Origin: Balanoglossus misakiensis
Taxonomy: Eukaryota; Animalia; Hemichordata
Reading direction: 5' to 3'
NCBI GenBank assembly: GCA_040954595.2
Contig: CM082581.2
Location: 6,316,699 to 6,380,698 of the forward strand
Length of the DNA: 64,000 nt
This document shows, in pieces, positions 1,333-55,959 of this stretch (position 1 is its first letter; the number at the start of each line of letters is the position of its first letter). The translations under genes were made by a program, and so were the position numbers. The notes under the pieces were generated by a model. It did no database searches. It saw only the letters and a program-made list of their open reading frames with translations, and had not been told where the DNA came from.

Positions 1333-3367
1333 TCATTCAGTGGCCTGTTTTGTCCCGGAGAGGTTTTGGTGCAGAAACACGGACGCTAGACTTGTGGCAA
1401 TGATGTACAAAGTGGTGAGACCAACTGAGAGAGGAACGAGGCCAATTTGGACGTCTAACGACTGAACCAACCACGACACCACGATCAAGCCTATATAGAT
1501 GAATACAAAGCATACTATGTTTAGAGTCTTCGACGCGGACGGGTGACGCGAAGCTTCACCGCTTGGCCACGCCCATCTCCGGATTCGCAGGAAGAAGTCC
1601 GTCGCGAACCAGGCCACGATGACGAGAAGGTACTGGATGGCGGGAATGCGCACCGCTTCGTTCAGCCTGACCCAGGCGCGCCCCTTGGACTCTGGGAGCC
1701 AGCTGAACAGCCAGACGATGAAGAAAAGATAGCCGCTGAACGGCAGAATCTTCGTGAATGCGGGCAGTCTCTTCCAGATGGGCAGGCCGAACAGCTGCGT
1801 CATCGCAAACACCCACATAAAGCCACTCAAAAACATCGGCCAGAGCAGAGTGCCGCCGAGTTCTGGTCCGGCCGTCTGGATCGCCGCAGTGGTGCTGTGA
1901 ACGGTCACCCAAAATTCGAGCAGCAGACGCCAGTAGCGATTCAAGTGCAGCTTGGTGTACATGAGACTACCCTGAAGCATGAACATCCACGTGTAGATGA
2001 AACCGGTTGCGTGGGCCCAAGTGTTTTCCATCGGGTGATACCAGAACGTGTACACTGCTGCCCAGGCGAATCCGTACCCATGGTACTTGCGGATGAAATC
2101 GATAGGCCCGGTGCTGAACCTCAGTTTCTGACTGAGCATTCCCCGGCTTTTCTCCGTCGGCCACCCGAAGGCCAGCCCACGGTCGCGATATTCCATCAGT
2201 AGGACGACGACAATCACCATGATTACTGAGCCTTGGGAGCTGGCGATGCTGACATCTTGGGCGAGGGCGTCGTAGAAGATGTGCGTCTGCAACAGATGCG
2301 CGAGATAAAAAGCAGCGTTCACGTACAGAGCCTTCCAGTTGAAGGACGACATGTCGGCTGTGTATCGCCGCTCTTTGGCTCTCATCTTATTCACTTGAGC
2401 CTCGTACGTGACCATCCACACAAAGATTTGGTGGAAAGCGTAACTCAGCCAGACGACACCCCTGGTCGCCATGGTGACCCTGTGGGGCGGGAGCTTCCAG
2501 TAGTACCACTTGGCCGACGCCTCTACTTTGTGGTGATCGGTATCGTTGAATTGGTCCGCGAAGGGCTCCGGGAGAAACCGTTCCGGTGATGTCAGACTTG
2601 TGTTGTGTGTGTAGCCAGAGATTGCATCCCATCCGCGCAGCGACCCCAGAGCGAACATGGCCGCCATGAGCACAGTTATGAAGACCATTCCAAGTTTCCA
2701 TGCATGGACGTCTTCTCGGACGACGCCCTTTTGTATTTTTAAAGAAAGGGGACATAATTACTTACTGTACTGAAACACTGTGTCAAGACAAAATTGAGTG
2801 TCATTCCAAGTCTCTCGTGATTCGGAAATTACATTTTTTTTCAACTTCCATGTTGACGTACCCATAGAAAGCTTAGGGTCGGCACACAATTATTAGGCGG
2901 GGGGCTAAGGGTAGCGTTCCCTCAACATTGTTTTCTTGGCGTCAGTAAAAAAAAACTCGCAGCTTTATGTAGAAAACGAGCCGATAATCAAGAAAGCTAT
3001 GGCGATCGTTACATTAACATAACGTAAAGGATAGATGGCATAACATAATTATGAAAGCTTCTGGAGAAATAATTCGTGTGTGGTGGTGGTGCGGACGAAT
3101 AAGCTCAGTTGTTGTGAAGTTTACGACACGCTTTATGAACAGTGATGTGACCTTGTATGCCCGTATAGTAATACATTGTGGAGCAATTAGGTCAGTTATA
3201 GATAAGGCGTAGAGGAAAAGAGAGCGAGTCTACAACGATCGTTTTTCATGCCGGACAAATCAGATAGGAAGCATTATGACCTAGTGTGACCCTTTGATAT
3301 TGTGACTCACCTCGATTTGCCCCGATCCGGTTGGTCGTGTTACTGGGTCCATGGTTTCAGCAGGCAT
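1333..3367 (-). CDS. His-rich multi-pass membrane protein, paralogue 1 (2 coding exons)
   Basis: Exon A 3367-3311 (MPAETMDPVTRPTGSGQIE, donor GAG|GTGAGT, phase 0) joins in frame to exon B ~2727-1333 (acceptor AAG after a pyrimidine tract), which contains the 451-aa ORF. Many hydrophobic segments; motifs HLLQTHIFYDALAQDVS, RKYHGY, YTFWYHPME, LQGSLMYTKLHLNRYW. Highly similar to paralogue 2. Confidence 0.85.
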
Positions 3368-4503: not shown

Positions 4504-6822
4504 TCACTCAGTGCTTCGCTTTATACAAGCAAAGATTTGGTGCAGAAAAACAGATGCCAAAGACGTACCAATGATGTATGCAACTGTCAGACTAAGTGTG
4601 ATTGGAACCAGGTAGAATTTGATATCCAGCCACTGAACCAGCCAGGAAATCACGATCATCCCAATATACGCTAGCAGAAAGCACAGGATGTATACAAATT
4701 TTGGAACACTAGAATAACCGGGCGCGGTTTTCTTTGACCACGCCCATCTTTGGATTCGCAGGAGGTATTCCATCACAAACCAAGCCAGGACAACGAGTAT
4801 GTACAGCATGGTGGGAATCCGCACGGCTTCGTTCATCCTGACCCAGGCGCGCCCCCTGGACTCCGGTAGCCAGCTGAACAGCCAGACGACGAAGCAAAGG
4901 TAGCCGGTGAACGGCAGAATCTTCGTGAATGCGGGCAGTCTCTTCCAGAACGGCAGGCCAAACAGCTGCGTCATGGCGAAGAGCCAGAGGAAACCGCACA
5001 GGAACATGGGCCATGACTTGGTGCCGCCCAGTTCTGGACCCGCTATCTGGAACGCCACGGCGGTGCTGTGGACGGTCACCCAGAATTCGAGCAGCAGACG
5101 CCAGTAACGATTCAAATGCAGCTTGGTGTACATGAGACTTCCCTGTAGCATCAGAATCCAGGTGTAGATGAAACCGGTTGCGTGGGCCCAAGTGTTTTCC
5201 ATCGGGTGATACCAGAACGTGTACACCGCAGCCCAGGCAAATCCGTAGCCATGGTACTTGCGGATGAAATCGACGGGACCGGTGCCGAATCTTAATTTCT
5301 GGCCGATCGACCCCTGGCTTTTCTCCGTCGGCCAACCGAAGGCCAACCCTCTGTCGCGATACTCCATGAGCATGACAAGGGCCAGAAGCATAATCACGGA
5401 GCCCTGCGAGCTGGCGACGCTCACATCTTGAGCAAGGGCATCGTAAAAGACGTGGGTCTGTAAGAGATGCACTGCATAAAACCCAAAGTTCACATACAGA
5501 GCCTTCCAGTTGAACGGCGCCATCTCGGTAGTGTACCTCTTTTCTCTTGTTTTCGTTTTCGTCATTTGGGCCTCGTATGTGACCATCCAGACGAAGATTT
5601 GGTGAAACGCGTAGCATAGCCACACGACCGCCTTGCTCGCCATGGTAACCCTGTGAGGCGGGAGCTTCCAGTAGTGCCACCTGTACGGAGCTTCCGGTCC
5701 AAACCGACCGGTGACGTTGACATCTTCCTCGAAGGGTTCCGGGAGAAACCGTCCATTTGACGTCAGACTGGTGTTGTGCGTGTGCCCGGAGTTGGCATCC
5801 CATCCACGCAGTGAGCCCAAAGCGAACATGGCTGCCATGAGCAAAACTATGAACGTCATTCCAAGCTTCCACGCCTTGACATCTTCGCGTCCAACATCCT
5901 CCTGTATTTCAAGAAAAAAAAACCCAGAGTTTAGCATAAAGTTCACAAATATTATTTACCCATTGCGTGAAACGAAAATAACATAAATAATGTCAACAGC
6001 TACATATTGCGCCTCTTTAATTAAACTGGAATGAAAATACAAGACGTTTAACATATTGAGTGAGCATTGCATTAAAGGTACACGGTCACCTCCATATGGC
6101 GACAATGGCGTTTCTGAGTGTTCTAATGAACATATGGTGGCGCTCTTTTTTAGCGTGTGCCGCCTACTGAAAATCTGTGACTGGCTGGATCTCAATTTGC
6201 CACGGGTAACGAAATTGGAATCACTCAAATCGTCCTTGAAAAGGCTTGTTTACATTCCATATTCTGAAGTAGTTTCTTTGTACATATTGTATAATGCACG
6301 TAGTGATGACAGACAGGGCAAATTCAACTTCTTGCAATAGTGGAGATGAAAGAAAATGTCTCCGTCACCAGTAGGGTAGGCCTACACTAACAGATTGAAT
6401 ACCATTAGTTAAAACGTATGGCGTCATTAAAATTAGGATTTAAGCGAATCCCTTTGTTTGCAATGACAACGTAGCTTATGCCTAGAAATATCGCTCAGAT
6501 ATATCTTCGCTACGTACCAACGAATGGCTTGAGGTAGACCAAAAGTCGAAATCGGACCACATGCACTCTGGGCAAATACTGTCGATGCTGATGTGGGAAT
6601 GAATATCACCTTTTTGAGAACAAAGGCCATGTTCAAACTGGGCTATACATGCAAGTGAATCAATAAGATTACATAACTGTTTCATGACTTCACCGTTCTC
6701 TATAAGACCACGGTCACAGCGCACTATGCGACTATGCTTATAAAACGCATGTGACGAGTTCCAAATTAATGCAGACACGTAGAAGTACATACCTCTTTCG
6801 AACTGTCTTTATCTTGATACAT
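4504..6822 (-). CDS. His-rich multi-pass membrane protein, paralogue 2 (2 coding exons)
   Basis: Exon A 6822-6793 (CCACC-ATG, MYQDKDSSKE, donor GAG|GTATGT, phase 0) joins exon B 5901-4504 (acceptor T-rich..ATACAG|GAG). Same motifs as paralogue 1. The first 15 residues of the ORF-track protein are intronic. A 5' UTR intron is likely (donor ~6963, acceptor ~6838). Confidence 0.87.
6072..6196 (+). mobile_element. Transposon end fragment (TTAA-AGG start, Kolobok-like terminus)
   Basis: Begins TTAAAGGTACACGGTCACC; the internal part has an inverted copy at 3766-3856. The family guess rests on the TTAA+AGG terminus only. Confidence 0.5.
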
Positions 6823-7790: not shown

Positions 7791-10700
7791 ATGGCAGACA
7801 TCGAAGCAGTCAACACGTACGACTATGTCATTATTGGTGCTGGCAGCGCAGGTTGCGTTCTAGCAAACCGTCTGACGGAAAATGAGAACGCCAGTGTTCT
7901 TCTACTTGAAGCTGGTCCCGAAGACACCAAGCCGGAAATCCGCGACCCTGCAAAGATGCCGTCGACTCTGATGTCTGAGATCGATTGGCAGTACAAGGTA
8001 AAAGTATAGGTCCGACTCCAGTTTCCCCCACAATACACACGTATGGGACCAGTCCCATCGTTTTACGGGGGAATGTTGTTCCAGCGAGACATGTCATGTC
8101 ATAGATACTATAGTCCATCGATGTCGATGAGTAAATGCACGAAATACGGACAATTATACACATCTTTTACTTGTGCTTGTTTCATCCTGTAGCCTGTATA
8201 AGAGTCTTGTTGGCCGGCAGTAAAACATTACTTTCATATTCAAATCATGGCCACACGTGCACACTCGATATCTATCGAATGCAGTTGGAAGGTTCTTTTG
8301 ACAGTATCGAGTCTCGGACACCTGCAATCAGAGAATAATACTTCGGACTTTATTGCCAACTAGGATTGAGTACCAGCAAAGACAAACACAATACTGGAAC
8401 TGCCTATTACATAATCCACAGGCTTTTATATAGGTCTAAAGCGCGGGAAATCTTTGTTAATCAAATTAACACCTTTTACTTTTACATGGGCAAAGGAATT
8501 TTCAAGATTGCAAACTGTCAGAGTGCACAATCTCGCTTGAGATTGGTCCATTAGAACTCAAATATGATTGGTCGATTCTAAATCCTGATTTTGCATCAAG
8601 CTCGATACATTTCAGCCAAGCTGTAGAAATCTATGTAAAGTCAGTCACGATAATATCACAAGGGAAACTGCTAAAAGGTGCATGAACGATAACTTGCACA
8701 CTCGTATATTTGGCAGGTGGTTTCCCAGAAACAGGCCTGCTTTGCATTTAGAGATCGCCAATGCATCTGGAACAGAGGAAAGGTGAGTCGGCTTTTCGAT
8801 TTGTGGTTTTTAAATTTTGGGGTATCTTTTGACAATTTGAATTCGTTCATTTTTGGCAGGTATGATCGAAACTTATTTAATTGTTTGATACAATGTTGGA
8901 TGTTTTTATTAGGTATATTGTAGTTTGCACTCGCAATGTAAATTAAAACGGAATTTACTGGCTTTTACAACTTATTCAACCACGTAATTCAGGTCATTGG
9001 TGGTTCGAGCAGCATCAACGCCATGCTGTATGTGAGAGGCTGCAAGGCAGACTACGATTCCTGGGCAAGACTGGGAGCTGAAGGATGGAGCTACGACGAA
9101 GTGTTGCCATACTTTTTGAAGTCAGAAAACAATACCAAGTAAGTTTCGTGGGAGCTGATTGGTATTCTCAATGTATACATGCTAAATCGGGTGATAGACA
9201 TGCAAAGTTGCGCTTCATAATTGAATGTGTTTTATTAAATGTTATTCGCTGTTTTCACAAATAGCAATTTGCAATCATTTATTTCTATACAATTAACCAT
9301 TTCAAACCTGTTTGATATTTTTTCTTAATCAGTAAGGAATACGCGGAGAGTGAATACCATTCTAAAGGGGGATGTCTTACCGTTTCTGATCTTTCGCCTA
9401 CTTGCAAAACCAGCGAGCTAATAATTGAAGGAGGTAAGCTTATGCCAACACATGATCATAACCGATATCATGGATTCCAACAACAAACCGAAGACATTAC
9501 TAAGTGGTGCATTTCATGTCCCGACGCCATGATCAGTATATTTTGCAGACAAAGCAAACTTAGTATATACATGTACATTGTCTTCACATATGAACTTAAC
9601 ATGATGTTTCCCAGGTATACCTAAATTGTGTTGCGTTTGTTCTTTACATGTAGCCAAGGAACTGGGTTTCGAGAAAATTGACGCCAACAACGGTGTTGAT
9701 ATGGTAAGGAAAAAAATTACGTTGATTATTAGAGGTATACTGGACATACAGTTGTTCATCAATAGTTATGGATAAATGACAACACAATTCTTGTTATTAT
9801 TTTGCAGGTTGGTTTTGGCTACATCCAAGCGACCATCAAAGATGGCAAGCGATGCAGTGCCGCCGATGCTTTCCTGAACCCTGTAAAGCAAAGAAGGAAT
9901 CTAACAATCTGGACGGAGACTCTGGCAACAAAGGTAAATTAAAGTTACTTGCAACCGCCATGTCAGCCATCGGAGCGATAAGGGGTAGCGATATACACAT
10001 ACATGTATATGTGACCATGCGCACAAGTTTACTGTGTGACCTGAATTTTGGGGGCTGAAGCAAATATCCAGCTGGTATTGTGTATCGAAATTTGTTGAGG
10101 GGTAACAGCAGATACCAATTGATTAATAGGAAGATTCTGATATTCTTAACATGTATCCATGACGTATTTTTCAGGTCTTGTTCAGCGACAAGAAAGCTAC
10201 ATCTGTCGAGATCCTTAAGAATGGCAAGAAAGGCGCGGTCAACGTTCGCAAAGAATTGATTTTGTCAGCTGGAGCCCTAGCTTCTCCCCAGGTATAATTG
10301 GAAACACCCCATACATGACATTTGAACTCTGTTCTGTGTGATATTGTTCGGGTAGTCAATGCCAGACAGCCTGCGGGTACTTGACAAAAGGAATAGTTCA
10401 CCATGACCCAAATTATGTATCTTGTGATTTTCAAAATATATGCATATTATATACATATATCCTTCCTTTCTCGCAAAATTCTTCTTTCAGTTGTTGATGC
10501 TGTCGGGTGTGGGGCCTCGTGATCACCTCCAGTCTTTAGGAATACCGGTGGTGTGCGATCTCCCAGTTGGTGAGAATTTACAGGTAATGTACTGGTGTTG
10601 TTCCGTTGTGCAGTCGGCCGCAAAAGTGGTCGCCTAGACTCTAGCTGCCAGTTCTAGGGCCCTGGGTAATTCACTAAAGGGAATGGGTCAGAGGTCAACA

Positions 10701-14557: not shown

Positions 14558-17500
14558 ATGGCAGTCAGCGAAGCAGTCAACACGTACGACTATGTCGTTA
14601 TTGGTGCTGGCAGCGCAGGTTGTGTTCTGGCAAACCGCCTGACGGAAAATGAGAACGTTAGTGTTCTTCTACTTGAAGCTGGTCCCGAAGACACCAAGCC
14701 AGAAATCCACGACCCTGCAAAGATGCCGTCGACTCTGATGTCTGAGATTGATTGGCAGTACAAGGTAAAAGTCTTGCATATTGTAGGCACTATTTTCTCT
14801 GAGAGATTGTTCTAAGTGCACAGTGTTCGAGCACAGGGGGCGCTCTCTCGCCGTGCTTTTATTGTGTGCGTGTTTGTTTGTTTGTCTGTTTGTTGTTATT
14901 GATTGGCATAATAAACAAACAAATATGGTCACGTTTGTTTGTTTGTTTGTTGACATGTAAGGGTGTATTCAACGTTGAGTGAGTGTCATAAGTCTTATGA
15001 TGTGTTCGTATACTTCTCAGACAGCTCCACAGAAACATGGTTGTTTTGCATTTAAAGATCGCCGCTGCAACTGGGCAAGAGGAAAGGTGAGTCTACCAGA
15101 ATATTTCAATAAAAGTATGCCATTTATGAGAATATATAAAAAGCATCTCATTTTGGTTACTGTTTGGTGGGGGCAAAATGGCTGCCCTGACAAAGAAGAA
15201 TGCCGGTTCGTTTTTACTTGTTGTGTCCAGGTCTATCCGGTGACACTATTTTCACGCCCAGTTTTGATTTAGATGATGGGTAAGTACCTGACGACAAATA
15301 CACATGAAAACATATAATTTACTGGATGAGAGCGACCCGTTAGCCCTGAAAACATGCAACGTCATATTACAGGTTCTTGGAGGATCAAGCAGTATTAATT
15401 GCATGATGTATGCGCGGGGTTGCAAAGAAGACTTCGATTCCTGGGCAAGACTGGGAGCTGAAGGCTGGAGCTACGATGAAGTGTTGCCATACTTTTTGAA
15501 ATCAGAAAACAATACCAAGTAAGTGAGTGAGCGAGCGAGCGAGCGAGCGAGTCAGTTAGTGACGATTATATGAAAATATACATAATGAACAAGCCACACG
15601 TGCAGTACTGCACCTTCACCAGACACACACTCGAAAAACAAAAATGGCTTCCCCTTCCCCTTTTCCAGAATGAGGCTGTCCCCTCCCCATGCTTCTGAGT
15701 GATGGCGCCACACACATACGTTCTGCCCGTCTCAAAATATGTCCTAAAACTACTAATATGCACAACGGCTGCATTTATGCGTTAAATTTGATTTTGAATG
15801 GGACTCCCTGTACAGTTACACCTAGCACTGTTGTTGGGAGTTTTTAATTTTCTGTTGATATCAACGATGTCCCCGATTTTGCTTTCATTTTTTCTCTCTC
15901 AGTGAAACATATGCTGAACGTGATTACCATTCTAAAGGGGGCTATCTAACCGTATGTGACCATTCATCTACGTCCAAAACCAGCAAGCTACTCATGGAAG
16001 GAGGTATACTAACACACTTCCGTATACTACAGTAAATTGATACTCCGCGAACATAATGGTTTCTGCGACCGCGAAAAATTCTAAAGTTGGAGAGCATCAG
16101 TGTATATGTCAACAAAACAGAGTGACTTATTTTCATGTACCACCCTTTTCATTTACATCACTTTAATGGCGTTTCGCTGGTGTACCGAAAACGTTTTAAC
16201 CACCTTTCTATACTTTATTTGCGTCTCTGTATAGCCAAGGAACTTGGTTACAAGACAACTGACTTCAACAACTGTGTTGATCCGGTAAGAACACAAAAAG
16301 ATTAATGTGTATAAATGTCTTGAAAATACCTTGTAGTAATAAATTGTGAATAAGGTAAAATTAAGAAGTTAAGATTCAATCCGTTCGTAGGTTGGTTTTA
16401 GCTACATCCAATCGACCATTAAAGATGGAAAGCGATGCAGCACGGCCGATGCTTTTCTGAACCCTGCAAAGGAAAGAACAAATTTAACCATCTGGACGGA
16501 GACTCTGGCAACAAAGGTAAGATTAAGTTTTCATCGCAGTTATGTCAAACCGTCCTGCAAACTTTCCTCACAAGTCTTAAAATGTATGGGACGACAAACA
16601 CCAAAGTTCACACAGGTTAAAAAGTTGTGGGCTGGAATGAAATCACAGTGGAGGGTCAACAGCAGACGCCCAATTACTTATAGATGGGTCGGATGTTATA
16701 CTCGCATGCATGCATGTGCTTACATATAGGCGTTACATTTCAGATCTTATTCAGTGGTAAGAGAGCAACGTCTGTGGAAATCCTAAAAGGAGGCAAGAGC
16801 GGAAGAGTGGACGTGCGCAAAGAAGTCATCCTGTCCGCTGGAACCGTCGCTTCTCCCCAGGTACAATACGAAGTTTGTAATACCGACAGCATGATTGATA
16901 TCTAAAATCGTTCACAGTTATCCGGTTTGAGTTCGGCACTTGGTCTGCACAGTTGTTCCATTTTTATGGAATTCATGACTAGCTACATGTATCTATGAAA
17001 CACATGACCTACCAGTAGGTCAGCCAGCCAGACACATGGCCAGACAAACACACGCATGCATGCCTTCCCTTTTTTTCTCTTTCTCAGCTGCTCATGTTGT
17101 CGGGTGTGGGGCCTCGTGACCACCTCCATGCTTTAGGAATACCCGTGGTTTGTGATCTCCCAGTTGGTGAGAACTTGCAGGTAAGATATTTATTTGCAGG
17201 TAAGATATTTATTTCATTTGAACTGACTTACTGGTAATTCGCTTCCAATGCGTGGTTCATTAGCATATCACTTGCATGAATATGTCTATATTTAATGCTT
17301 TCATCGATACATTCAGTCGACATTCATATAAACCAGCATGACGGTACAATGTTATTTAATCGCAGGATCATCTGATAACAATCATCAAATACAAAGGCCA
17401 TGCAGGTGGCATAGAAAAGGTATGATTGACCATGCTTCCTCCTTTTTCTTCGGTTCCTGTATGTATTATCAAACATGAATATTTCGCTCATTATACATAC

Positions 17501-20869: not shown

Positions 20870-22774
20870 ATGAACAACCTGGTGGTAATCGCATGCCTGT
20901 TGGCCGTAAGCAGTTACTGCGCCGGCTTTGCGGAGGTGAGTTATTTTTTTTTTCATTTCAGAAAAACATGTAGTTTCATTTTTGTTCGTTTTTCTCTAAG
21001 AAGTATTTTGCTGTTGCTTAATTCTTCACAATACGAGGCTTCGATTTCGATATGCCCCTGCAGGCATTGTCGTTTGGCGCACACCCAACCGTTCCGGATA
21101 GTCCCCGTGCTGACGTGTTTCACTCGGAGAACACATATAATCAACCACATGTTTCCGTTTTGTTGTGATATATTCAGAGCAAATCTTATTCAGTGACAGT
21201 AGACGTCGATGGAGAAGAGCAACAACAATTGGTGACCCTGGATGAAGAGAAGAACGTGGAGATATACCAAGCAGACGGATCTCAGACACAACTTGTGGCC
21301 GACTTCGATACTGTAAGTGAAGTGGTCTAAGTACTAAATAATTTCTACAAAACTGGTTTAACTCATTTACTAGACATATTCGTGACGTGTGTTATTTGCA
21401 AAAAAACGGCATTCATGCAGATGTAATTGGAAGATTAAAAAATCTGCTTCCCGTTTGCCCGTGGCAAATTGTTTACCGTGATCATCGACTTCAAGCTGTA
21501 CATCTGGCGAAATCAGTATTGTCTGCCGGTTTACTATTAAGAATAAAGGGACTACGCTGCATCTTGCTTTTTAGCCAATTTACATTTTAACTTCTCAGGT
21601 CTCGTATCTGTTCTCATTAACATTCCCATAGCCTGAGTCTCTTCGTGTTTTTTTCAGGGGCTGTTTGCCATCATGTATGGCGACGACAATGCATGTTACA
21701 TATCTCCGCTAGAAAATGACGTTTTTGACGAACCATCAAACTTGAAAGCCATCCTGGAGTCTCATGAGGTATGTACACGATAAATTCTAGGTTTTAGTTT
21801 GGCGGTCTGCCCCAGTACGTGACTGTGAAAATAGCTTGATTGAAGTATCAGAACATTAATGTCACCATAGAGCTAACGTCACGATCCTAAACCTATTTGT
21901 TTCCGAATTCCATCAAGAAAAAAATAAAAAGCCTCATTTTACAGATCATAATAGAGTAAAACATGACTACAACACAATGTGAAAGCAAGACGAAATGAAA
22001 TACTGTAAATAGGACGTGTTTTTTCTCTCTTTTTCTGAACTTTCTTAGAAATTGAAGTTCGAAGGAAAGCACATGGAATATTTCACTGTAGCTGGTGATC
22101 GCCTGAAGAACGAGAATGTGGTTGGTGAGACCATTGCCAGAGAATGTGAGGGGAGACCCATCTATTGGTTGAAAGCCGGAGAGCGCCATGGGCAAGGTAA
22201 ATCCAAATAACGCTGTATAACCATATCCCATTGGATAAGCTAAAGATAAAAGTAGTTCATGTGCATGGTAATGACAGAATTCTATTAATATTCCGTATCT
22301 GAGATGCGATTGGTGCACATGGTTTTTATTTGTAAAAATACGAAGCGGGAACTTTCACTAGAAAAAGTAAAGAAAAAGTAAAGAAGGGTGATAGTACAAT
22401 GATAGTACAAAGGCAGGATCTGTAGGATAATTGTTAATCTTCAGTCTACGATCGCAAAGTACGAACATATTTGCATATTACATGCATATCTTCACCTAAA
22501 ACACATTTCATTAAGTATGGTAAATCTAATAATCTCAGTTCACCAGCTTTAAAACCTAATTGTCTGATATGTGATCTTGGCATGCACATGAAAAGTTGGT
22601 ATGTGGGTTCTGAATCACAAACTCGAACTTCAGTTTCTACATATACCAGACGCAAACTGACTGCAATATTCTCATCATTGATAATCTACCGCACTTTGTT
22701 TCTTTCTATATACAGAGAAGCGAGGCTGCAAGTTGGCATGTTTTCTCATATTTTGTGCGTGGAAATGCGATTAG
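20870..22774 (+). CDS. Secreted BRICHOS-domain precursor with C-terminal 4-Cys peptide (putative antimicrobial peptide precursor), 172 aa
   Basis: Exons 20870-20935, 21178-21312, 21658-21768, 22049-22196 and 22716-22774 splice in frame. Signal peptide MNNLVVIACLLAVSSYCAG; BRICHOS hallmarks DFDTGL, ACYI and ECEGRPIYWL (two conserved Cys); then EKR followed by GCKLACFLIFCAWKCD-stop. AATAAA at ~22849. Confidence 0.88.
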
Positions 22775-23668
22775 CACGAAGAAACCAACGTTCGGATTGC
22801 AATCCATCGATTCTTTGTAGTGACAATTGTAGTAGTAGGTTATCAGTGAAATAAACAAGTAAATAAATTACTAAGCATCTAAATTTGTGTTCATTGTCGT
22901 TTGTCCCACAATGTATAGTAAATATGGCTGTTTGTATTTGTGTCTGTGTTAACAGTATGCCTGAGGGTGTGTCTTTCTGTTTGTATCCTCGATATATCTG
23001 GAACGGAGGTGTCGCGGGGCGATTTTGGAACATAGAAACAGGATAAGAAGAAATTAAAGTTGTGTAAATGGTTATAACAAAGAAGAAAGTGTATCAAAGA
23101 CACGCGAATATCCACGCCAACACAACGAGATGGCCACTAATAGATGCAACAGACACCCAAAGTTAGCATACAAATATAAAAGCAAATTATAATGCAAATC
23201 ACACACACATGGGTCGTCATGCAGTATCAAACATCTAGGGCAAAATAGGAGTGCGGTGTAACCTTTTGTGCAAGGACGGACTAAATGCAACCTTGGCCTA
23301 CTGTCGAATCCATCGGTGGCGTTTGGAATGTCGCGACAGTTCCTGACCTGTTTGGAGCATCCAACATGGCAGACATCGATGAATAAAACACAAAAGTGTA
23401 CAGCATCTTGTGATTGAAGCAGGTTGTTTACCAGCTTTTCGTTTGCCGGAAAACGCACACAAGACAGTACAATAATCATAGTGTACAACAAGTTATGTTT
23501 CTAACCATCAGTGTCAGTCTGTATGTAATGTACATCTTTATGGTTTAACCTTCTGTAGAAAGGTGCAAACAAGGCCTAAGGCCAATCGCTGCTTTATCCA
23601 ATTATTATTGACGTATTTATGTCGCCACATTCCTTCAGTTGATTTGACCTGTCTATGGGGCATTCAAA

Positions 23669-45400: not shown

Positions 45401-47691
45401 TGTCACAAATGAAAACCGTTTCCCTTTAAAAGATAGCCCCGTTTGTATGTGCGTCACCGTCATCAGGCTTTGTGGACAGAGACTACCGTAAAATGTATAT
45501 ACATGTAATACGCCCCAAGAGGTGATCCTTATATAGTACATGCGTTTGTGACCTCTAGCTCTCCTGAATCAACTTTTATTTGACTTCAAGTTGTCTCTAA
45601 TAAAGTACCACTGTTTACGAGGGACTGTGATTTGTATCATAGGACGACGAAATAGTGGCAAAAAATTCATGTTTTAGTGTGTGTTTTTTCACAGGACCAT
45701 ATCTTGGTATTGGTGAGATACAAAGGTAACGCTGGCGGCATTGGAAAGGTGCGTTCATATAACCCTGTCCACTGTTAATTATTTGCCTCGGGACATTCTA
45801 GTTCAGTGGCTGCGTGTATTAATTAAAAGTGCATTATGTGATGCTCGCGTGGTTTGTTGGCGCAATACAAGTTGTAAATGAATCTACATGAATGTATATG
45901 TGTTTTTTTCAGGACTGGGCCACAAATCATCTGGAAGTCTGTGGCTTTTTCAAAACCGAGGTAAGGCCGAGTGTTCACTACCTGAGAGAAACTATAAAAT
46001 GTTACTTTAATCACAAGCTACCATTTCCATTTCACACAGTGACTATTTTCAGCGGCGATTTTTGAACATTAATATTATTATTGTCGAAATTAAATCTTCT
46101 AGTGATAAAATGAAAACTTTTAAATTATGCAAATTTTCAAGCTGTTATAAATATATATCAGATATCGGTAACATCCATATCGCTAGCACTCTTTTGTTCT
46201 ATTTTGTGCTTGCAATCATAAGCCAAATATTTGATTATCGCAACTTTTAAAGGAGCATACAAACTTTTCGCCTACGCTCTTCTTATTCGATCAACAAAAC
46301 AGGAAGAACATCCCTGGCCTGACATACAATTATTCTTCATACCAACGTACTATTGTGAAAAGACAGTATGCAACATCAGCGAGCAGTGAGTATCGCCCAC
46401 GTCATAGCTTTTGCGAATATTATGCCTTAGACGCGTTTGAATTATGTCAACTACTCCAATTTTTTATTCGAGCCATTTTCCCATTTTGGCCGATATTATA
46501 TCTCTCATTCAACCTGAGTTCTCTGTTATATAGTATCGTTTAACTGATATTATCCGCATGTATCTGTACACCAAGATCGTATACATGTATGTACAATGCG
46601 TATCTCGCATCACTACTCGCATCTTATCGTGCAACCCGTGATGTCAACTTTTTCCGACCAGATTTAGCAAAGCCCTGGAGCATACCGACGATGATGTGAT
46701 GAATGCCACAGAGGGGATACTATTCTTTCCGGGACTACTTCACCCAAAAAGTGTTGGCGACATCAAACTTGCCAGTCAAAATCCTTTGGATCATCCAATA
46801 ATTGATCCCCACTATTTGGAGCAACAAGAAGACGTACAGACATTGTTAAAGGTGAGAATTAGCGCTGACCCGTGTCAAATTTGAAATGACTGCTGATTTT
46901 CACGTTTCAACAACCGAAACCGAATACTGATTGAGGTGTTTTCTCTCCATTTTAAAGAGCGTTCGTGTTATTCAGAAGTTGATGAATACTAAGGCTATGA
47001 AGGGTCACGGGTAAGTCTTAATATCAAATTGAAATACGAAAACATTAATGACGTTTGTGATGTACAAAAAGAGGAAGAGAGACAGACAGACACGTGTCGG
47101 GGAAAAAACAGTAGACATTATGATAGTATAACATTAAAACAGACAAGATGAGTAAAACTCAAACTCTTCTTACAGAATAATTCCGTCATATTTCAAGTTC
47201 GACAACTGCCCCCACGAGGTGGACAGCGATGCATACTGGGAACACGTCATTCGTCACTTAACACTTACGGTATGGCACCAAGTAGGGACTTGTAAAATGG
47301 GAGCCTCTGATGACCCATCTGCCGTGGTTTATCCGTGCCTCAGGTAACATTCCCATGTGACTCTATTCGTGTACATGCATTGAAGAAATGTCGTTCATTC
47401 TAGACTAAAAGAATGGCGAAGTGATGTTTTTCCTCAAAGCCTGTTGTATAGCAAGACTTGGCAACTTCCTTGTAACGTTGTTTAACTATCGTCGTCAATT
47501 TTCATTCGTAGAAAATTGTGTATTCTTGCATATAAATGCGAACACTTCATTTCTGTTTCAGAGTCCGCGGACTAGACAACGTCCGTGTTGCGGATGCTTC
47601 CATCATGCCACACCTGACATCTGGCAATACAAACGCCCCTTGCATAATGATCGGTGAAAAGGCTTCAGATTTGATTAAGCAAGACATGTGA
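42408..47691 (+). CDS. GMC oxidoreductase 6, 15 coding exons
   Basis: Open frame throughout; [18 protein letters not shown]; in-frame 12-nt deletion in exon 11 and a VVDP>VVYP change relative to its twin GMC7. Confidence 0.9.
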
Positions 47692-48271
47692 TGTGGAGCT
47701 CATGAAGTGTATTCTGATCAAGATTTTCGAGACATTGACCACTCTGAATATATTGTTCTTTAATTCGAGATACCTCTATCATGACGCCCCCTCAACCTTG
47801 CAGAGCAAAGGCAAAAGCCATTATATCTGGAAAGGTTTCGGATTTGATTAAGCAAACAATGCGATTTTTTGCGCTAAAACAAGTGGAAGAAGAGATGTAT
47901 CTTAAATAAAAATAAAAACAGCTATATCTGCATAGTATCACTGACTTCATATAGCCATAGCCTAGTTTATGTAATACACAGCATGTCTGGTTAGGCCTAT
48001 ATACATATCAGGAACTGGGGCAAAATACGGGTCATACCCTTTTGCAGCAGGTATATGTCAACGCACAAGACATGGACGGATAATAGTGTGTGTATGCAAC
48101 ACGCATTCGCATGACATGACTTCATGACCCTCACAAACCAGTTTGAGACAAATTGTCCCCGGCGAGTCATGTTCGCCGTTCGCCCCCTCGCCAAAATGGT
48201 ACAGCCTGCAGACCATGTTTTGAAGTCATCGTGCGAGGCCGCTCGCGCTCGGTCGATGGCTATCATTCAAC

Positions 48272-51200: not shown

Positions 51201-53723
51201 AGTAAAAACCGCTTCCCTATAAGATAGCCCGGTTCATATGTGCTTCACCGTCATCAGGCTTTGTGGACAGAGACTACCGTAAAATGTATATACATGTAAT
51301 ACGCCCGAAGAGGTGATCCTTATATAGTACATGCGTTTGTGACCTCTAGCTCTCCTGAATCAGCTCTTGGAAACTTTTATTTGACTTCAAGCTGTTTCTA
51401 ATAAAGTACCACTGTTTACGAGGGACTGTGATTTGTATCATAGGACGACGAAATAGTGGCAAAAAATTCATGTTTTAGTGTTTTTTTTCACAGGACCATA
51501 TCTTGGTATTGGTGAGATACAAAGGTAACGCTGGCGGCATTGGAAAGGTGCGTTAAATATAACCCTTTCCGCTGTTAATTATTTGCCTCGGGACATTCTA
51601 TTTCAGTGGCTGCGTGTATTAATTAAAAGTGCATTATGTGATGCTCACGTGGTTTGTTGGCGCAATACAAGTTTTTAATAAATCTACGTGAATGTATATG
51701 TTTATATTTTAGGACTGGGCCACAAATCATCTGGAAGTCTGCGGCTTCTTCAAAACAGAGGTAAGGCCGCGTGTTCATTACCTGGGAGAAACTATAAAAT
51801 GTTACTTTAATCACAAGCTACCATGTCCATTTCATACAATTACAGTGGCGATTTTTGAACATAATTTACGTCGAAATTGAAGCTTCTTGTGGTAATGAGT
51901 CTCTCAGTACGCTGATATATTTAGCTAATTTTAGCTTTTTTGGCAAGCCTGGACGTAAATTGTTAATTGCCAACTTTTCCATTATGCAAATGTTCAATAT
52001 ATATATCAGATATCGCTAGCACTCTTTTGTTCTATTTGTGCTTGCAATCATAAAGCAAAATCTTTGATAATCGCAACTTTTAAAGGCGCATACAAACTTT
52101 TCGCCTACGCTCTTCTTATTCGATCAACAAAACAGGAAGAACATCCCTGGCCTGACATACAATTATTCTACATACCAACGTACTACTGGGGAGGTTCTGG
52201 TGAAAAGACAGTATACAACATCAGCGAGCAGTGAGTATCGCCAACGTCATAGCTTTTGCGAATCTTATGCCTTAGAAGCGTTTGAATTGTGTCAACTACT
52301 CCAATTTTGTATTCGAGCCATTTTCCCATTTTGGCCGATATTATATCTCTCATTCAACCTGAGTTCTCTGTTATATAATATCATTTAACTGATATTATCC
52401 GCATGTATCTGTACACCAAGATCGTATACATGTATGTACAATGCGTATCTCGCATCACTACTCGCATCTTATCGTGCAACCCGTGATGTCAACTTTTTTT
52501 GACCAGATTTAGCAAAGCCCTGGAGCATACCGACGATGATGTGATGAATGCCACAGAGGGGATACTATTCTTTCCGGGACTACTTCACCCAAAAAGTGTT
52601 GGCGACATCAAACTTGCCAGTCAAAATCCATTGGATCATCCAATAATTGATCCCCACTATTTGGAGCAACAAGAAGACGTACAGACATTGTTAAAGGTGA
52701 GAATTAGCGCTGACCCGTGTCAAGTTTGAAATGACTGCTGATTTTCACTTTTCAACAACCGAGACCGAATTCTGATTGAGGTGTTTTCTCTCCATTTTAA
52801 AGAGCGTCCGTGTTATTCAGAAGTTGATGAATACTAAGGCTATGAAGGGTCACGGGTAAGTCTTATGAAATGGAAGTACGACAAACCATAGTGACATTTG
52901 TGATGTACAAAAGGATAAAGAGAGAGAGAGACAGGCACACAGCGGGAAAGAACCAGCGATATTCTGACACAGACAGGCACAGTTATCAGACTAATGGGAG
53001 GAGGACCAGTGTACCCCAATCTGATTAAAATCAGATGTAGAGTTGGTTCGATCTTTGCATTTTATTGTTCTTTGCAGAGGTTCGCCATATCCATACACAC
53101 AGACAGCAAATTACAAGCAAATGCAAACAATCTAGCCAATACTACATTTAATTTAAATTTTACCACATTGAGTACACCGAAACCACACTCTGACTCTAGT
53201 TCTCCTTACAGAATAATTCCGTCATATTTCAAGTTCGACAACTGCCCCCACGAGGTGGACAGCGATGCATACTGGGAACACGTCATTCGTCACTTAACAC
53301 TTACAGTATGGCACCAAGTAGGGACTTGTAAAATGGGAGCCTCTGATGACCCATCTGCCGTGGTTGATCCGTGCCTCAGGTAACATTCCCATGTGACTCT
53401 ATTCGTGTACATGCATTGAAGAAATGTCGTTCATTCTAGACTAAAAGAATGGCGAAGTGATGTTTTTCCTCAAAGCCTGTTGTATAGCAAGACTTGGCAA
53501 CTTCCTTGTAACGTTGTTTAACTATCGTCAATTTTCATTCGTAGAAAATTGTGTATTCTTGCATATAATGCGAACACTTCATTTCTGTTTCAGAGTCCGC
53601 GGACTAGACAACGTCCGTGTTGCGGATGCTTCCATCATGCCACACCTGACATCTGGCAATACAAACGCCCCTTGCATAATGATCGGTGAAAAGGCTGCAG
53701 ATTTGATTAAACAAGACATGTGA
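48272..53723 (+). CDS. GMC oxidoreductase 7, 15 coding exons (recent duplicate of GMC6)
   Basis: Exons, introns and 3' flank align closely to GMC6; [32 protein letters not shown]. Confidence 0.92.
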
Positions 53724-54135
53724 TGTAGAGATCATGAAGTGTATTCTGATCAAGATTTTCGAGACATTGACCACTCTGAATATATTGTTCTTTAATTCGA
53801 GATACCTCTATCATGACGCCCCCTCAACCTTGCAGAGCAAAGGCAAAAGCCATTATATCTGGAAAGGTTTCGGATTTGATTAAGCAAACAATGCGATTTT
53901 TTGCGCTAAAACAAGTGGAAGAAGAGATGTATCTTAAATAAAAATAAAAACAGCTATATCTGCATAGTATCACTGACTTCATATAGCCATAGCCTAGTTT
54001 ATGTAATACACAGCATGTCTGGTTAGGCCTATATATATATCAGGAACGGGGGCAAAATGCGGGTCATACCCTTTTGCAGCAGGTATATGTCAACGCACAA
54101 GACATGGACGGATAATAGTGTGTGTATGCAACACG

Positions 54136-55959
54136 CAGTCAGATCGCACGGCATTCATTAACATATGCAAATGAAGAAAGTACTTCAAACCATGTAGCCG
54201 TTAGAGTGGGCCCCGCTGAAGGGTCGCGAAATAGGCCATTTTTTTACTCGATATTATAGAGCTGTTTTCAGGCGATGTGGATTATTTTAAGACAAAACCG
54301 TGGATTCACTTGAAGGTAGGTATACTGGATTGTTACTGAATGATTTTTTGGCAACTTCTGTCGAGTAGTTTCTTTGTAATCACGAAATTTCTGACGACTG
54401 TGAAAAAACACATAGCGTTGACATCCTCTCGATTATTTTTAAGCTGACCGTTACACATGGATTTTACCACGAAATTTCAAACTTTTATCAAAATATAGAC
54501 ATCAAACTCCCTCTCTTTGAGTTTTCATTCACTTCCAAGCTTTGATAGTGACGATATGACCAGTTCAATTTTGTTTACCTTTCAACCTGTGAGCGCCATT
54601 TTGTTTACTTTTCAACCCGTGAGCGCCACTTCTTCTGCAAAATGGCGGGAGAAGACAGCATGCATGTGTACGTATATACGCTGGCGCAGGCTTGATCCTG
54701 GGTTGTACCAGCTGCGTAGTTTTCCCTCCTCTCTCGTGCGAAGAAATTTTGATTGCTGATATGTAATCCCGAGTTTTACTAAACCCTAACAATTATTTTA
54801 TGAAGGTTTGCCCGTCAAGGAAGCTCACTTTTTTTAATTTTATTGTTCTTTCAGATTGATGAAGACTGATTTTTGTGGTGGTGGTGTTGCAGTTGACTGT
54901 TTTATTTTAGCTGTCTGAGTTGACAATTTATTCTGTATTTTATTGTATTTTTAACTCTTTATCCTGTATTTTGTAGTAGTATTTTGAACACTGTTTAATA
55001 AATAAATTACTATTATTATTATTTATCGACCCAATGCAGTGATGACAAATCGCTCGCCTTCAGACACAAATGTTGTATTTATTGCATATATCATCGGCGA
55101 ATAAAGGGAAGTGGTTTCGAAGTTACACTTGGCATTTTCGAAAAGTCTACTTATATCCCACGATGCGGAGAAAAAAATATATACTAAATACGTCAGCTGA
55201 GCTCCTCACGTACGGTAAACCTGGCATTCTGTGCATGGGTAATCAAATATTTGTTTGTAGCCCAATGTAGGCGAACGACGTGGAGCACCCGGGCGCGGCA
55301 CTCGTGCGATTGATCGATGTTGTGTCGAAATCAGGCCAGTAATTAAGTTAAAACTTGGCTGATATGTTACCTTAGAGTGTTATACACTATCCAGTAACTT
55401 TTACTTGACAAGTGTCTTTTAGAAACTGTTTTCCCCACGATAAACGTGTCGTTTCACGAGCAACGCAACACTTCCGTATTTACAAGCCTAACATGGAGAG
55501 GTCAACGTAGGGCCTATACTTCCGGGTCATATCGTCGAACTACATCGATTATTTTTAAGCTGACCGTTACACAAGCATTTCGAGTTAATTTCTTTTCACG
55601 GATGTTGGGACCGATATTAGACCTATCTGTCACGAAAACTTGGTTAACTTCCGAGGTCGTCTTCAAATGATTTTTGGCACGTTTGTGGACGTCTTTTCCG
55701 AGGTCACCAACATACCACCGAAAACACGCTAAAAACTACTACTATTACCGACAGATTCTCATAAAATTTACGTCTGCAGTGCAAAATAGGAATCACTTTC
55801 GAAATTTATCGAGCTAGCATGGTATTTTATTGTACCACGGAGTGTAAAAATCAAGTTGAAAATCACCTTGAAAACTGGCCTATTGCCGTCTGTTTGAAAA
55901 TTAACGGTCGCTGGCTTGACGAACTTTCATATGCAAATGAGCACCGTGCGATCTGACTG
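54136..55959. mobile_element. 1.8-kb non-autonomous DNA transposon with terminal inverted repeats
   Basis: Perfect 16-bp TIR CAGTCAGATCGCACGG / CCGTGCGATCTGACTG, extending imperfectly inward. Flanked by CACG direct repeats (54132-54135, 55960-55963); the empty paralogous site is visible at ~48097-48110 (CAACACGCATTCGC). Internal 29-bp direct repeat at ~54429 and ~55545. No transposase ORF. Confidence 0.9.

What the first reader, a model, noticed from the sequence alone, without database searches (positions are those of the whole stretch)
20870..22774. Hidden BRICHOS precursor encoding a candidate new 16-aa beta-hairpin defence peptide, GCKLACFLIFCAWKCD
Seen: five small exons, invisible in the ORF track, splice into signal peptide + acidic linker + BRICHOS domain + dibasic KR + a hydrophobic 16-mer (22724-22771) with C-x3-C-x4-C-x3-C spacing; the KR site and peptide sit on their own exon. 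Known: annelid arenicin, alvinellacin, capitellacin and nicomicin are made as signal-BRICHOS-peptide precursors, with BRICHOS chaperoning an aggregation-prone hairpin. Inference: nested disulfides (C2-C15, C6-C11) give a very short hairpin with net charge about +1, less cationic than arenicin-type peptides. It could be a new antimicrobial or cytolytic peptide, or a signalling/amyloid-forming peptide.
Basis: partly seen in the sequence, partly recalled or inferred. Interest (0 to 1): 0.85.

Follow-up and report, generated by a model that had tools for sequence, protein, structure and literature searches.

The report
Acorn-worm chaperoned uncharged hairpin peptide
An intact five-exon gene, most likely from an acorn worm, encodes a folding-helper (BRICHOS) protein with a signal-peptide-like start and a short, greasy four-cysteine tail that is predicted to form a hairpin, is likely cut off and likely serves in surface defence, although it lacks the strong positive charge of the worm antibiotics that are made the same way.

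Summary
The gene is real. Five GT-AG exons give an open 172-aa frame, and Pfam BRICHOS matches exons 3 and 4 in order. All 14 named relatives are from the hemichordate Ptychodera flava; some are auto-named 'arenicin-like'. Three of the 14 end in the same C-x3-C-x4-C-x3-C-Asp-stop frame and group with this gene on the pro-region alone (97/99), which confirms the last exon. The spacing is not new: tachyplesin, gomesin and the BRICHOS-made capitellacin share it. The chemistry differs. The tail is +1 here and -1 in the three relatives, against +5 to +8; it is hydrophobic, has no Arg, and has a Gly-free inner loop. Only 2 of 4 members keep the dibasic site. Non-Cys tail positions are hypervariable, as expected of defence peptides. 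Best reading: a chaperoned, secreted, non-cationic defence hairpin, not an arenicin-type membrane lyser. Transcripts, cleavage and activity are untested. My searches found no paper on hemichordate BRICHOS peptides. The scan noted similar precursors in a brachiopod and a clam (unchecked notes).

The parts
20870..20935 (+). Exon 1: start codon and signal-peptide-like segment (22 aa)
   Evidence: Kyte-Doolittle 7-residue means 2.4-3.5 for windows starting at residues 3-8. No SignalP run.
21178..21312 (+). Exon 2: acidic N-terminal strands of the extended BRICHOS fold, ending in the conserved Asp (D64)
   Evidence: tblastn of P0015: 53% identity, E 1e-10. Strands E23-63 in the model of P0015. Aligns with the Asp region of Bri2 BRICHOS 8RNU.
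21658..21768 (+). Exon 3: BRICHOS, first conserved Cys (C80)
   Evidence: Pfam PF04089 positions 14-48, E 0.0046
22049..22196 (+). Exon 4: BRICHOS, second conserved Cys (C137); phase-1 donor
   Evidence: Pfam PF04089 positions 60-91, E 0.0019; phmmer hits
22718..22723 (+). Lys-Arg, candidate convertase site (no Arg at P4, so not the full furin consensus)
   Evidence: Sequence; cleavage inferred
22724..22771 (+). 16-residue tail GCKLACFLIFCAWKCD; Cys at 2, 6, 11, 15; net +1; GRAVY 1.17; 1815.8 Da monoisotopic with two disulfides
   Evidence: Same Cys frame and terminal Asp in P0003, P0014 and P0015.
22850..22867 (+). Two AATAAA candidate polyadenylation signals
   Evidence: use not shown

Best explanation
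The gene encodes a BRICHOS precursor whose hydrophobic 16-residue four-cysteine tail is predicted to fold as a two-disulfide hairpin, is likely held by the BRICHOS domain during secretion, is likely cut off at Lys-Arg, and likely acts as a surface (mucus) defence peptide by hydrophobic binding or clumping rather than by charge-driven membrane lysis. Shown: gene structure, BRICHOS homology, membership of a short-tail subfamily with a fixed C-x3-C-x4-C-x3-C-Asp frame, hypervariable non-Cys positions, and near-zero charge. Predicted on a relative: the hairpin and its register. Inferred: secretion, chaperoning, cleavage, tissue and defence role. My odds by step: real expressed gene 0.95; secreted precursor with a chaperoned hairpin 0.9; release at KR in this species 0.65; defence role 0.6; host is an enteropneust 0.85.
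For: Open canonical exon chain. BRICHOS by Pfam, by the family profile against Bri2 BRICHOS 8RNU, E 6.7e-11, and by Atlas structure for P0015, TM 0.80 to ITM2B models over residues 7-175. The tree of pro-regions without tails puts the gene with the three short-tail P. flava proteins, 97/99. The AlphaFold model of P0015 has tail strands 161-166 and 169-174 at pLDDT 71-76; these limits place Cys161 opposite Cys174 and Cys165 opposite Cys170 (register inferred, coordinates not inspected). The three P. flava paralogs share 79-84% of the pro-region but only 1, 1 and 4 of 11 non-Cys tail positions. Their sister paralogs carry R-x-K/R-R sites (9 of 9 parsed) and tails of +3 to +6 (7 of 9), i.e. arenicin-like cargo. 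The alvinellacin gene also keeps the peptide on its last exon (PMC5431198, passages). Weakly charged hydrophobic hairpins RCB-1 and AC12 have narrow or no direct antibacterial activity (PMC13001179, passages and supplement). Lead only: two LECT1-annotated genes of the hemichordate Schizocardium are enriched in epidermal cluster 4 (PMC13554239 supplements; orthology untested; file cut after cluster 12).
Against: Two of four short-tail members have no dibasic site: a single Lys in P0014 and Lys-Pro in P0003. The window's site lacks the P4 Arg. The Atlas feature search for P0015 ranks gastrokine clusters first (0.94, 0.93). A profile built from the three P. flava tails did not place exon 5 among its top 8 rows in the window: beyond Cys and Asp the tail is not conserved. 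The window protein has a long branch (0.74) in the tree. No activity, expression or peptide data exist for any member.
Confidence: 0.5

Rival explanations
1. Classical arenicin/capitellacin-type antibiotic: the released hairpin binds anionic bacterial membranes and disrupts them.
For: Same precursor layout, same 3-4-3 Cys spacing as capitellacin, tachyplesin and gomesin, and cationic sister paralogs. Charge +1 is at the floor of the class range of 1-8 (PMC13001179, passages).
Against: Peptides with this spacing in that table carry +5 to +8 and negative GRAVY. This one is +1, GRAVY 1.17, with no Arg; the three relatives are -1. The review finds Arg enriched, Asp/Glu rare and loops rich in Gly/Pro/Arg/Asn; here the loop is FLIF and the terminal Asp is fixed in 4 of 4.
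Confidence: 0.18
2. Gastrokine-like mucosal protein that works uncut: the hairpin stays in the BRICHOS groove and the whole protein acts as an extracellular chaperone or mucus component. That gastrokines act largely uncut is recalled, not checked here.
For: Dibasic site missing in 2 of 4 short-tail members. Gastrokine-1/2 clusters are the top Atlas feature hits, with similar length. Human gastrokine 1 has been studied for anti-amyloid activity (PMC10182729, passages).
Against: A structural, retained hairpin would be expected to be conserved with its groove; it is instead the most variable part. KR is present here and in P0015.
Confidence: 0.2
3. Secreted signalling peptide or immunomodulator acting on a host receptor.
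For: Short disulfide loop with aromatic residues, and a PC1/PC2-type dibasic site rather than a furin site (inference). AC12, of similar charge and hydrophobicity, is immunomodulatory rather than antimicrobial.
Against: Only 1 of 11 non-Cys positions is shared with each relative; there is no amidation signal.
Confidence: 0.1
4. Chance assembly of exons, or a pseudogene.
For: No transcript evidence was obtained.
Against: Four exons are recovered in order by relatives, the frame is intact, the family profile gives 172.6 bits, and the tail frame is conserved.
Confidence: 0.02

Closest known systems
Polychaete BRICHOS-AMP precursors (arenicin, alvinellacin, capitellacin, abarenicin, nicomicin, HfBRI peptides)
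   Same: Signal segment + acidic proregion with BRICHOS + dibasic site + C-terminal Cys peptide; peptide on the last exon as in alvinellacin; Cys spacing identical to capitellacin.
   Different: Closest relatives are hemichordate. The tail is 16 aa, shorter than the 18-91 aa HfBRI range, +1, Arg-free, strongly hydrophobic, and ends in Asp. Orthology to the polychaete AMP group was not tested: no polychaete precursor was retrieved.
Tachyplesin, polyphemusin, gomesin
   Same: C-x3-C-x4-C-x3-C frame; gomesin has Cys at the same positions 2, 6, 11, 15 (supplement of PMC13001179, read by eye).
   Different: They are +6 to +8, amidated and Arg-rich, with polar or Gly-containing loops. That their precursors lack BRICHOS is recalled.
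Ptychodera flava XP_070562310 (P0015), XP_070564302 (P0014), XP_070564303 (P0003, auto-named arenicin-2-like)
   Same: 47-53% identical pro-region, same Cys frame and terminal Asp, one clade.
   Different: Unstudied gene models; tails are -1; two lack the dibasic site.
Gastrokines (GKN1/2) and ITM2B/Bri2
   Same: BRICHOS followed by a C-terminal hairpin; top Atlas hits by features and by structure.
   Different: Vertebrate families; the four-Cys hypervariable tail and the paralog expansion are not shared as far as examined.

Membership tests
BRICHOS superfamily | BRICHOS domain homology | tested here: met
   Pfam on exons 3 and 4; relatives at 45-56 bits; profile hit to 8RNU
BRICHOS superfamily | Conserved Asp and two Cys (PMC2751770) | tested here: met
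   D64, C80, C137; D/C/C columns conserved in the family alignment
BRICHOS superfamily | N-terminal hydrophobic segment and C-terminal beta-prone region | tested here: met
   Hydropathy; hairpin in the model of P0015
BRICHOS superfamily | Fold match to a solved BRICHOS structure | tested here: inconclusive
   Foldseek top rows 8RNU (E 0.019) and 2YAD, none at E <= 0.001; VIA-align 2YAD Z 5.2, rmsd 3.0, 66 aligned, tied with LolA rows
Polychaete BRICHOS-AMP group | Dibasic convertase site before the peptide | tested here: met
   KR at 22718-22723; absent in 2 of 3 closest relatives
Polychaete BRICHOS-AMP group | Mature part enriched in positive residues | tested here: not met
   +1 with two Lys, no Arg, one Asp; relatives -1
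Polychaete BRICHOS-AMP group | Phylogenetic grouping with the AMP family of BRICHOS domains | not tested
   No polychaete precursor came back from the searches, so the tree has only hemichordate-type rows
Polychaete BRICHOS-AMP group | Antimicrobial activity of the released peptide | not testable with these tools
   Needs synthesis and assay
beta-hairpin AMP class (PMC13001179) | 11-25 aa, Cys pairs at least 3 residues apart, charge 1-8 | tested here: met
   16 aa, spacing 3-4-3, +1 against the class ranges
beta-hairpin AMP class (PMC13001179) | Arg enriched over Lys; loop enriched in Gly/Pro/Arg/Asn; Asp/Glu rare | tested here: not met
   0 Arg, 2 Lys, loop FLIF, terminal Asp
beta-hairpin AMP class (PMC13001179) | Experimentally shown disulfide-closed hairpin | not testable with these tools
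   Only a prediction on a relative

The most novel reading that the evidence does not exclude
Acorn worms carry an expanded, undescribed arsenal of BRICHOS-chaperoned defence peptides, so this system reaches the deuterostomes and may be ancestral to bilaterians. Within it, a short-tail class has kept the tachyplesin/capitellacin disulfide frame but dropped the charge, giving salt-insensitive hydrophobic hairpins that would trap or inhibit microbes in mucus by binding or controlled aggregation once freed from their chaperone.
Probability: 0.3. Interest if true: 0.7.

Novelty: new variant of a known kind. Interest (0 to 1): 0.48.

Why it matters
In the papers I read, BRICHOS-made antibiotics are described only from annelids. 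A 2026 review lists 25 natural beta-hairpin AMP families in five phyla, none of them Hemichordata. A hemichordate family with both arenicin-like cationic members and a non-cationic short class would link the worm system to the vertebrate BRICHOS proteins (gastrokines, Bri2), whose released hairpins have largely unknown roles. It also offers a natural test of what a tachyplesin-type frame does without its charge. The 16-mer is cheap to make, so the question is directly testable.

Tried and rejected
No whole genome is held, so copy number outside the window and synteny are unknown. Sequencing runs: no RNA holder listed; this is no evidence either way, and no reads could be laid. The word-indexed search with exon 4 against longer proteins found 0 of 9 candidates. 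The Atlas search with exon 4 alone was uninformative. PDB sequence searches: the tail gave one chance row at E 8.3 and exon 4 none. Single-sequence folding of P0003 failed (pLDDT 33.5). The second profile search added only P0021 and no other taxon (7 of 3106 candidates); it depends on shared 5-residue words, so absence in other phyla is not shown. The metagenome scan gave 384 pattern matches and none confirmed. The tail-only profile did not find exon 5. P0001 and P0004 (2 of 7 hits) were dropped as tandem-repeat artefacts without BRICHOS. P0019 and P0021 were mis-parsed or unparsed and left out of the site and charge counts. P0014's site was mis-parsed there and is read instead. P0017, P0019 and P0021 were left out of the tree. 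No second copy of the gene lies in the window. Rejected: that the gene lies in an intron of a GMC oxidoreductase (it lies between two copies), and four alternative acceptors for the last exon. Paper searches with no result: BRICHOS + hemichordate, + Saccoglossus, + Ptychodera, arenicin + hemichordate. BRICHOS + amphioxus gave 5 papers. Hemichordate + antimicrobial peptide gave 34, of which 20 were listed and none was on topic by title. The library lacks most subscription papers. APD/DRAMP, SignalP and ProP were not available. The spliced protein itself was not scanned against Pfam or folded; those two results rest on single exons and on relatives.

Full report
Observation. All introns are GT-AG (242, 345, 280 and 519 nt; phases 0, 0, 0, 1), and the frame is 172 aa without a break. 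The last exon starts with two bases of a split Glu codon, then KR, the 16-mer and the stop; two AATAAA follow. Pfam BRICHOS hits exon 3 and exon 4 at consecutive profile positions (17.6 and 18.8 bits, each below the cut-off of 25). The Cys motif occurs once in the window. It occurred in 5 of 100 control windows, and in 0 of 100 when followed by Asp-stop. No RNA support could be obtained.

Relatives. phmmer with exon 4 against 1.84 billion representatives gave 7 hits. Four are Ptychodera flava BRICHOS proteins, one is an unnamed single-exon BRICHOS piece, and two are repeat artefacts. Profile searches gave 10 of 2643 and 7 of 3106 candidates. With cluster members, 14 named proteins were seen, all from P. 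flava, an enteropneust hemichordate; several are auto-named arenicin-1-like or arenicin-2-like. The best match is P0015 (47.5% over 160 aa, E 1e-50). The window's organism is therefore probably another acorn worm; this is inferred from these hits alone. P0015 recovers exons 1-4 in order by tblastn, exon 1 only at E 2.1. A profile of 16 relatives scores the spliced model at 172.6 bits.

Two subfamilies. Most relatives carry long tails of 27-36 aa behind an R-x-K/R-R site (9 of 9 parsed), and 7 of 9 are +3 to +6: they look like arenicin-type cargo. Three of the 14 (P0003, P0014, P0015) end in C-x3-C-x4-C-x3-C-Asp-stop, like the window gene. A tree of pro-regions with tails removed (15 rows) puts these three with the window gene at 97/99 support, though the window row is a long branch. 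This is independent support for exon 5. Within the short class the tails are +1, -1, -1 and -1; 10-12 of 16 residues are hydrophobic; the inner loops are FLIF, VFFV, FNFY and FYYD. The pro-regions of the three P. flava paralogs are 79-84% identical, but their tails share 1, 1 and 4 of 11 non-Cys positions. Only the window gene and P0015 keep a dibasic site. Against this, a profile made from the three tails alone did not rank exon 5 among its top 8 rows: only the Cys frame and the Asp are conserved.

Structure. The family profile matches Bri2 BRICHOS (8RNU) at E 6.7e-11, with the conserved Asp and both Cys aligned. AlphaFold on P0015 with the 16-row alignment gave mean pLDDT 75.9 and pTM 0.72. 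The part encoded by exon 2 forms four strands, so the 'linker' is part of the fold. The tail forms strands 161-166 and 169-174, limits that fit nested disulfides. The Atlas model of P0015 aligns with ITM2B models at TM 0.80 across the tail, and its feature neighbours are gastrokines. Fold searches against solved chains were inconclusive. Published AlphaFold analyses place C-terminal hairpins in the face A groove of most human BRICHOS proteins (PMC9714404, first part of the text; PMC10182729, passages). I infer the same here; I did not inspect the docking.

Context. The gene is single-copy in the window. It lies in unique DNA between the second and third of nine tandem GMC oxidoreductase genes on the same strand (first exons at 14582 and 23672). 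Nothing links it functionally to them.

Mechanism. Most likely the precursor enters the secretory pathway, and the acidic BRICHOS part (net -15) holds the aggregation-prone hairpin while its disulfides form. A convertase would then cut at KR and release the 16-mer at a body surface. A constant pro-region with a hypervariable cargo on a fixed Cys frame, among sister genes with cationic hairpins, points to defence. The lack of charge argues against electrostatic membrane lysis and for hydrophobic binding or clumping. Every step after the gene structure is inferred. As a lead, two LECT1-annotated Schizocardium genes are enriched in epidermal cluster 4, one with log fold change 1.69 in 91.6% of cells (PMC13554239, supplements 3 and 5). 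The marker file was cut after cluster 12, and I could not test whether these genes belong to this family.

Comparison with what is known. Polychaete BRICHOS-AMP precursors have the same layout (PMC10745061, first two parts of the text; PMC6265681 and PMC7761999, passages). Alvinellacin also has its peptide on the last exon (PMC5431198, passages). The supplement of PMC13001179 (read by eye) shows the same 3-4-3 spacing in tachyplesins, polyphemusins, gomesin and capitellacin, all +5 to +8. So the scaffold is known and the chemistry is not typical. The nearest entries by charge and hydrophobicity are RCB-1 and AC12, one narrow-spectrum and one without direct antimicrobial activity. The gene is a clear BRICHOS superfamily member. 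It works like a BRICHOS-AMP precursor, but it fails the cationic-cargo feature and its orthology to the polychaete group is untested. Hedlund 2009 (PMC2751770, two of three parts) mentions a divergent echinoderm/amphioxus pair, and Chen 2022 (PMC9627735, one section) an invertebrate-containing set of groups I, II and AMP; I could not place this gene among them.

Novelty. Four searches pairing BRICHOS or arenicin with hemichordate names found no paper; the library lacks most subscription journals. NCBI's automatic names already hint at the family. The scan's own notes describe similar precursors in a brachiopod and a clam (unchecked). Verdict: a real gene, a new variant of a known kind, interest 0.48.

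Noticed in passing
window 7794-63600, + strand: Tandem array of nine GMC oxidoreductase genes (first exons at 7794, 14582, 23672, 28577, 35920, 42432, 48296, 56066, 62338). Segments 47157-48108 and 53193-54140 are 98% identical, suggesting recent duplication or gene conversion.
   Followed up: partly
window 1333-2757 and 4504-5955, - strand: Two tandem uninterrupted ORFs of 474 and 483 aa, 78% identical in DNA, rich in hydrophobic stretches, with no Pfam hit at E 0.01. Long intron-free frames in an intron-rich region; a transferred bacterial-type membrane protein is a possibility that I did not test.
   Followed up: no
P0005, P0006, P0009-P0013, P0016, P0018-P0020: P. flava and unnamed relatives carry 27-31 aa four-Cys tails, mostly +3 to +6, behind full furin sites. 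They are better candidates for classical antibiotics than the window peptide.
   Followed up: partly
P0002 (unnamed record, 70 aa): 64% identical to exon 4, and it runs on into unrelated sequence at the same point as the window's exon 4 read-through, suggesting the same phase-1 intron in another genome.
   Followed up: no
P0007: A paralog with a 36-aa, two-Cys, net -4 tail behind a furin site: a second non-cationic cargo type in the family.
   Followed up: no
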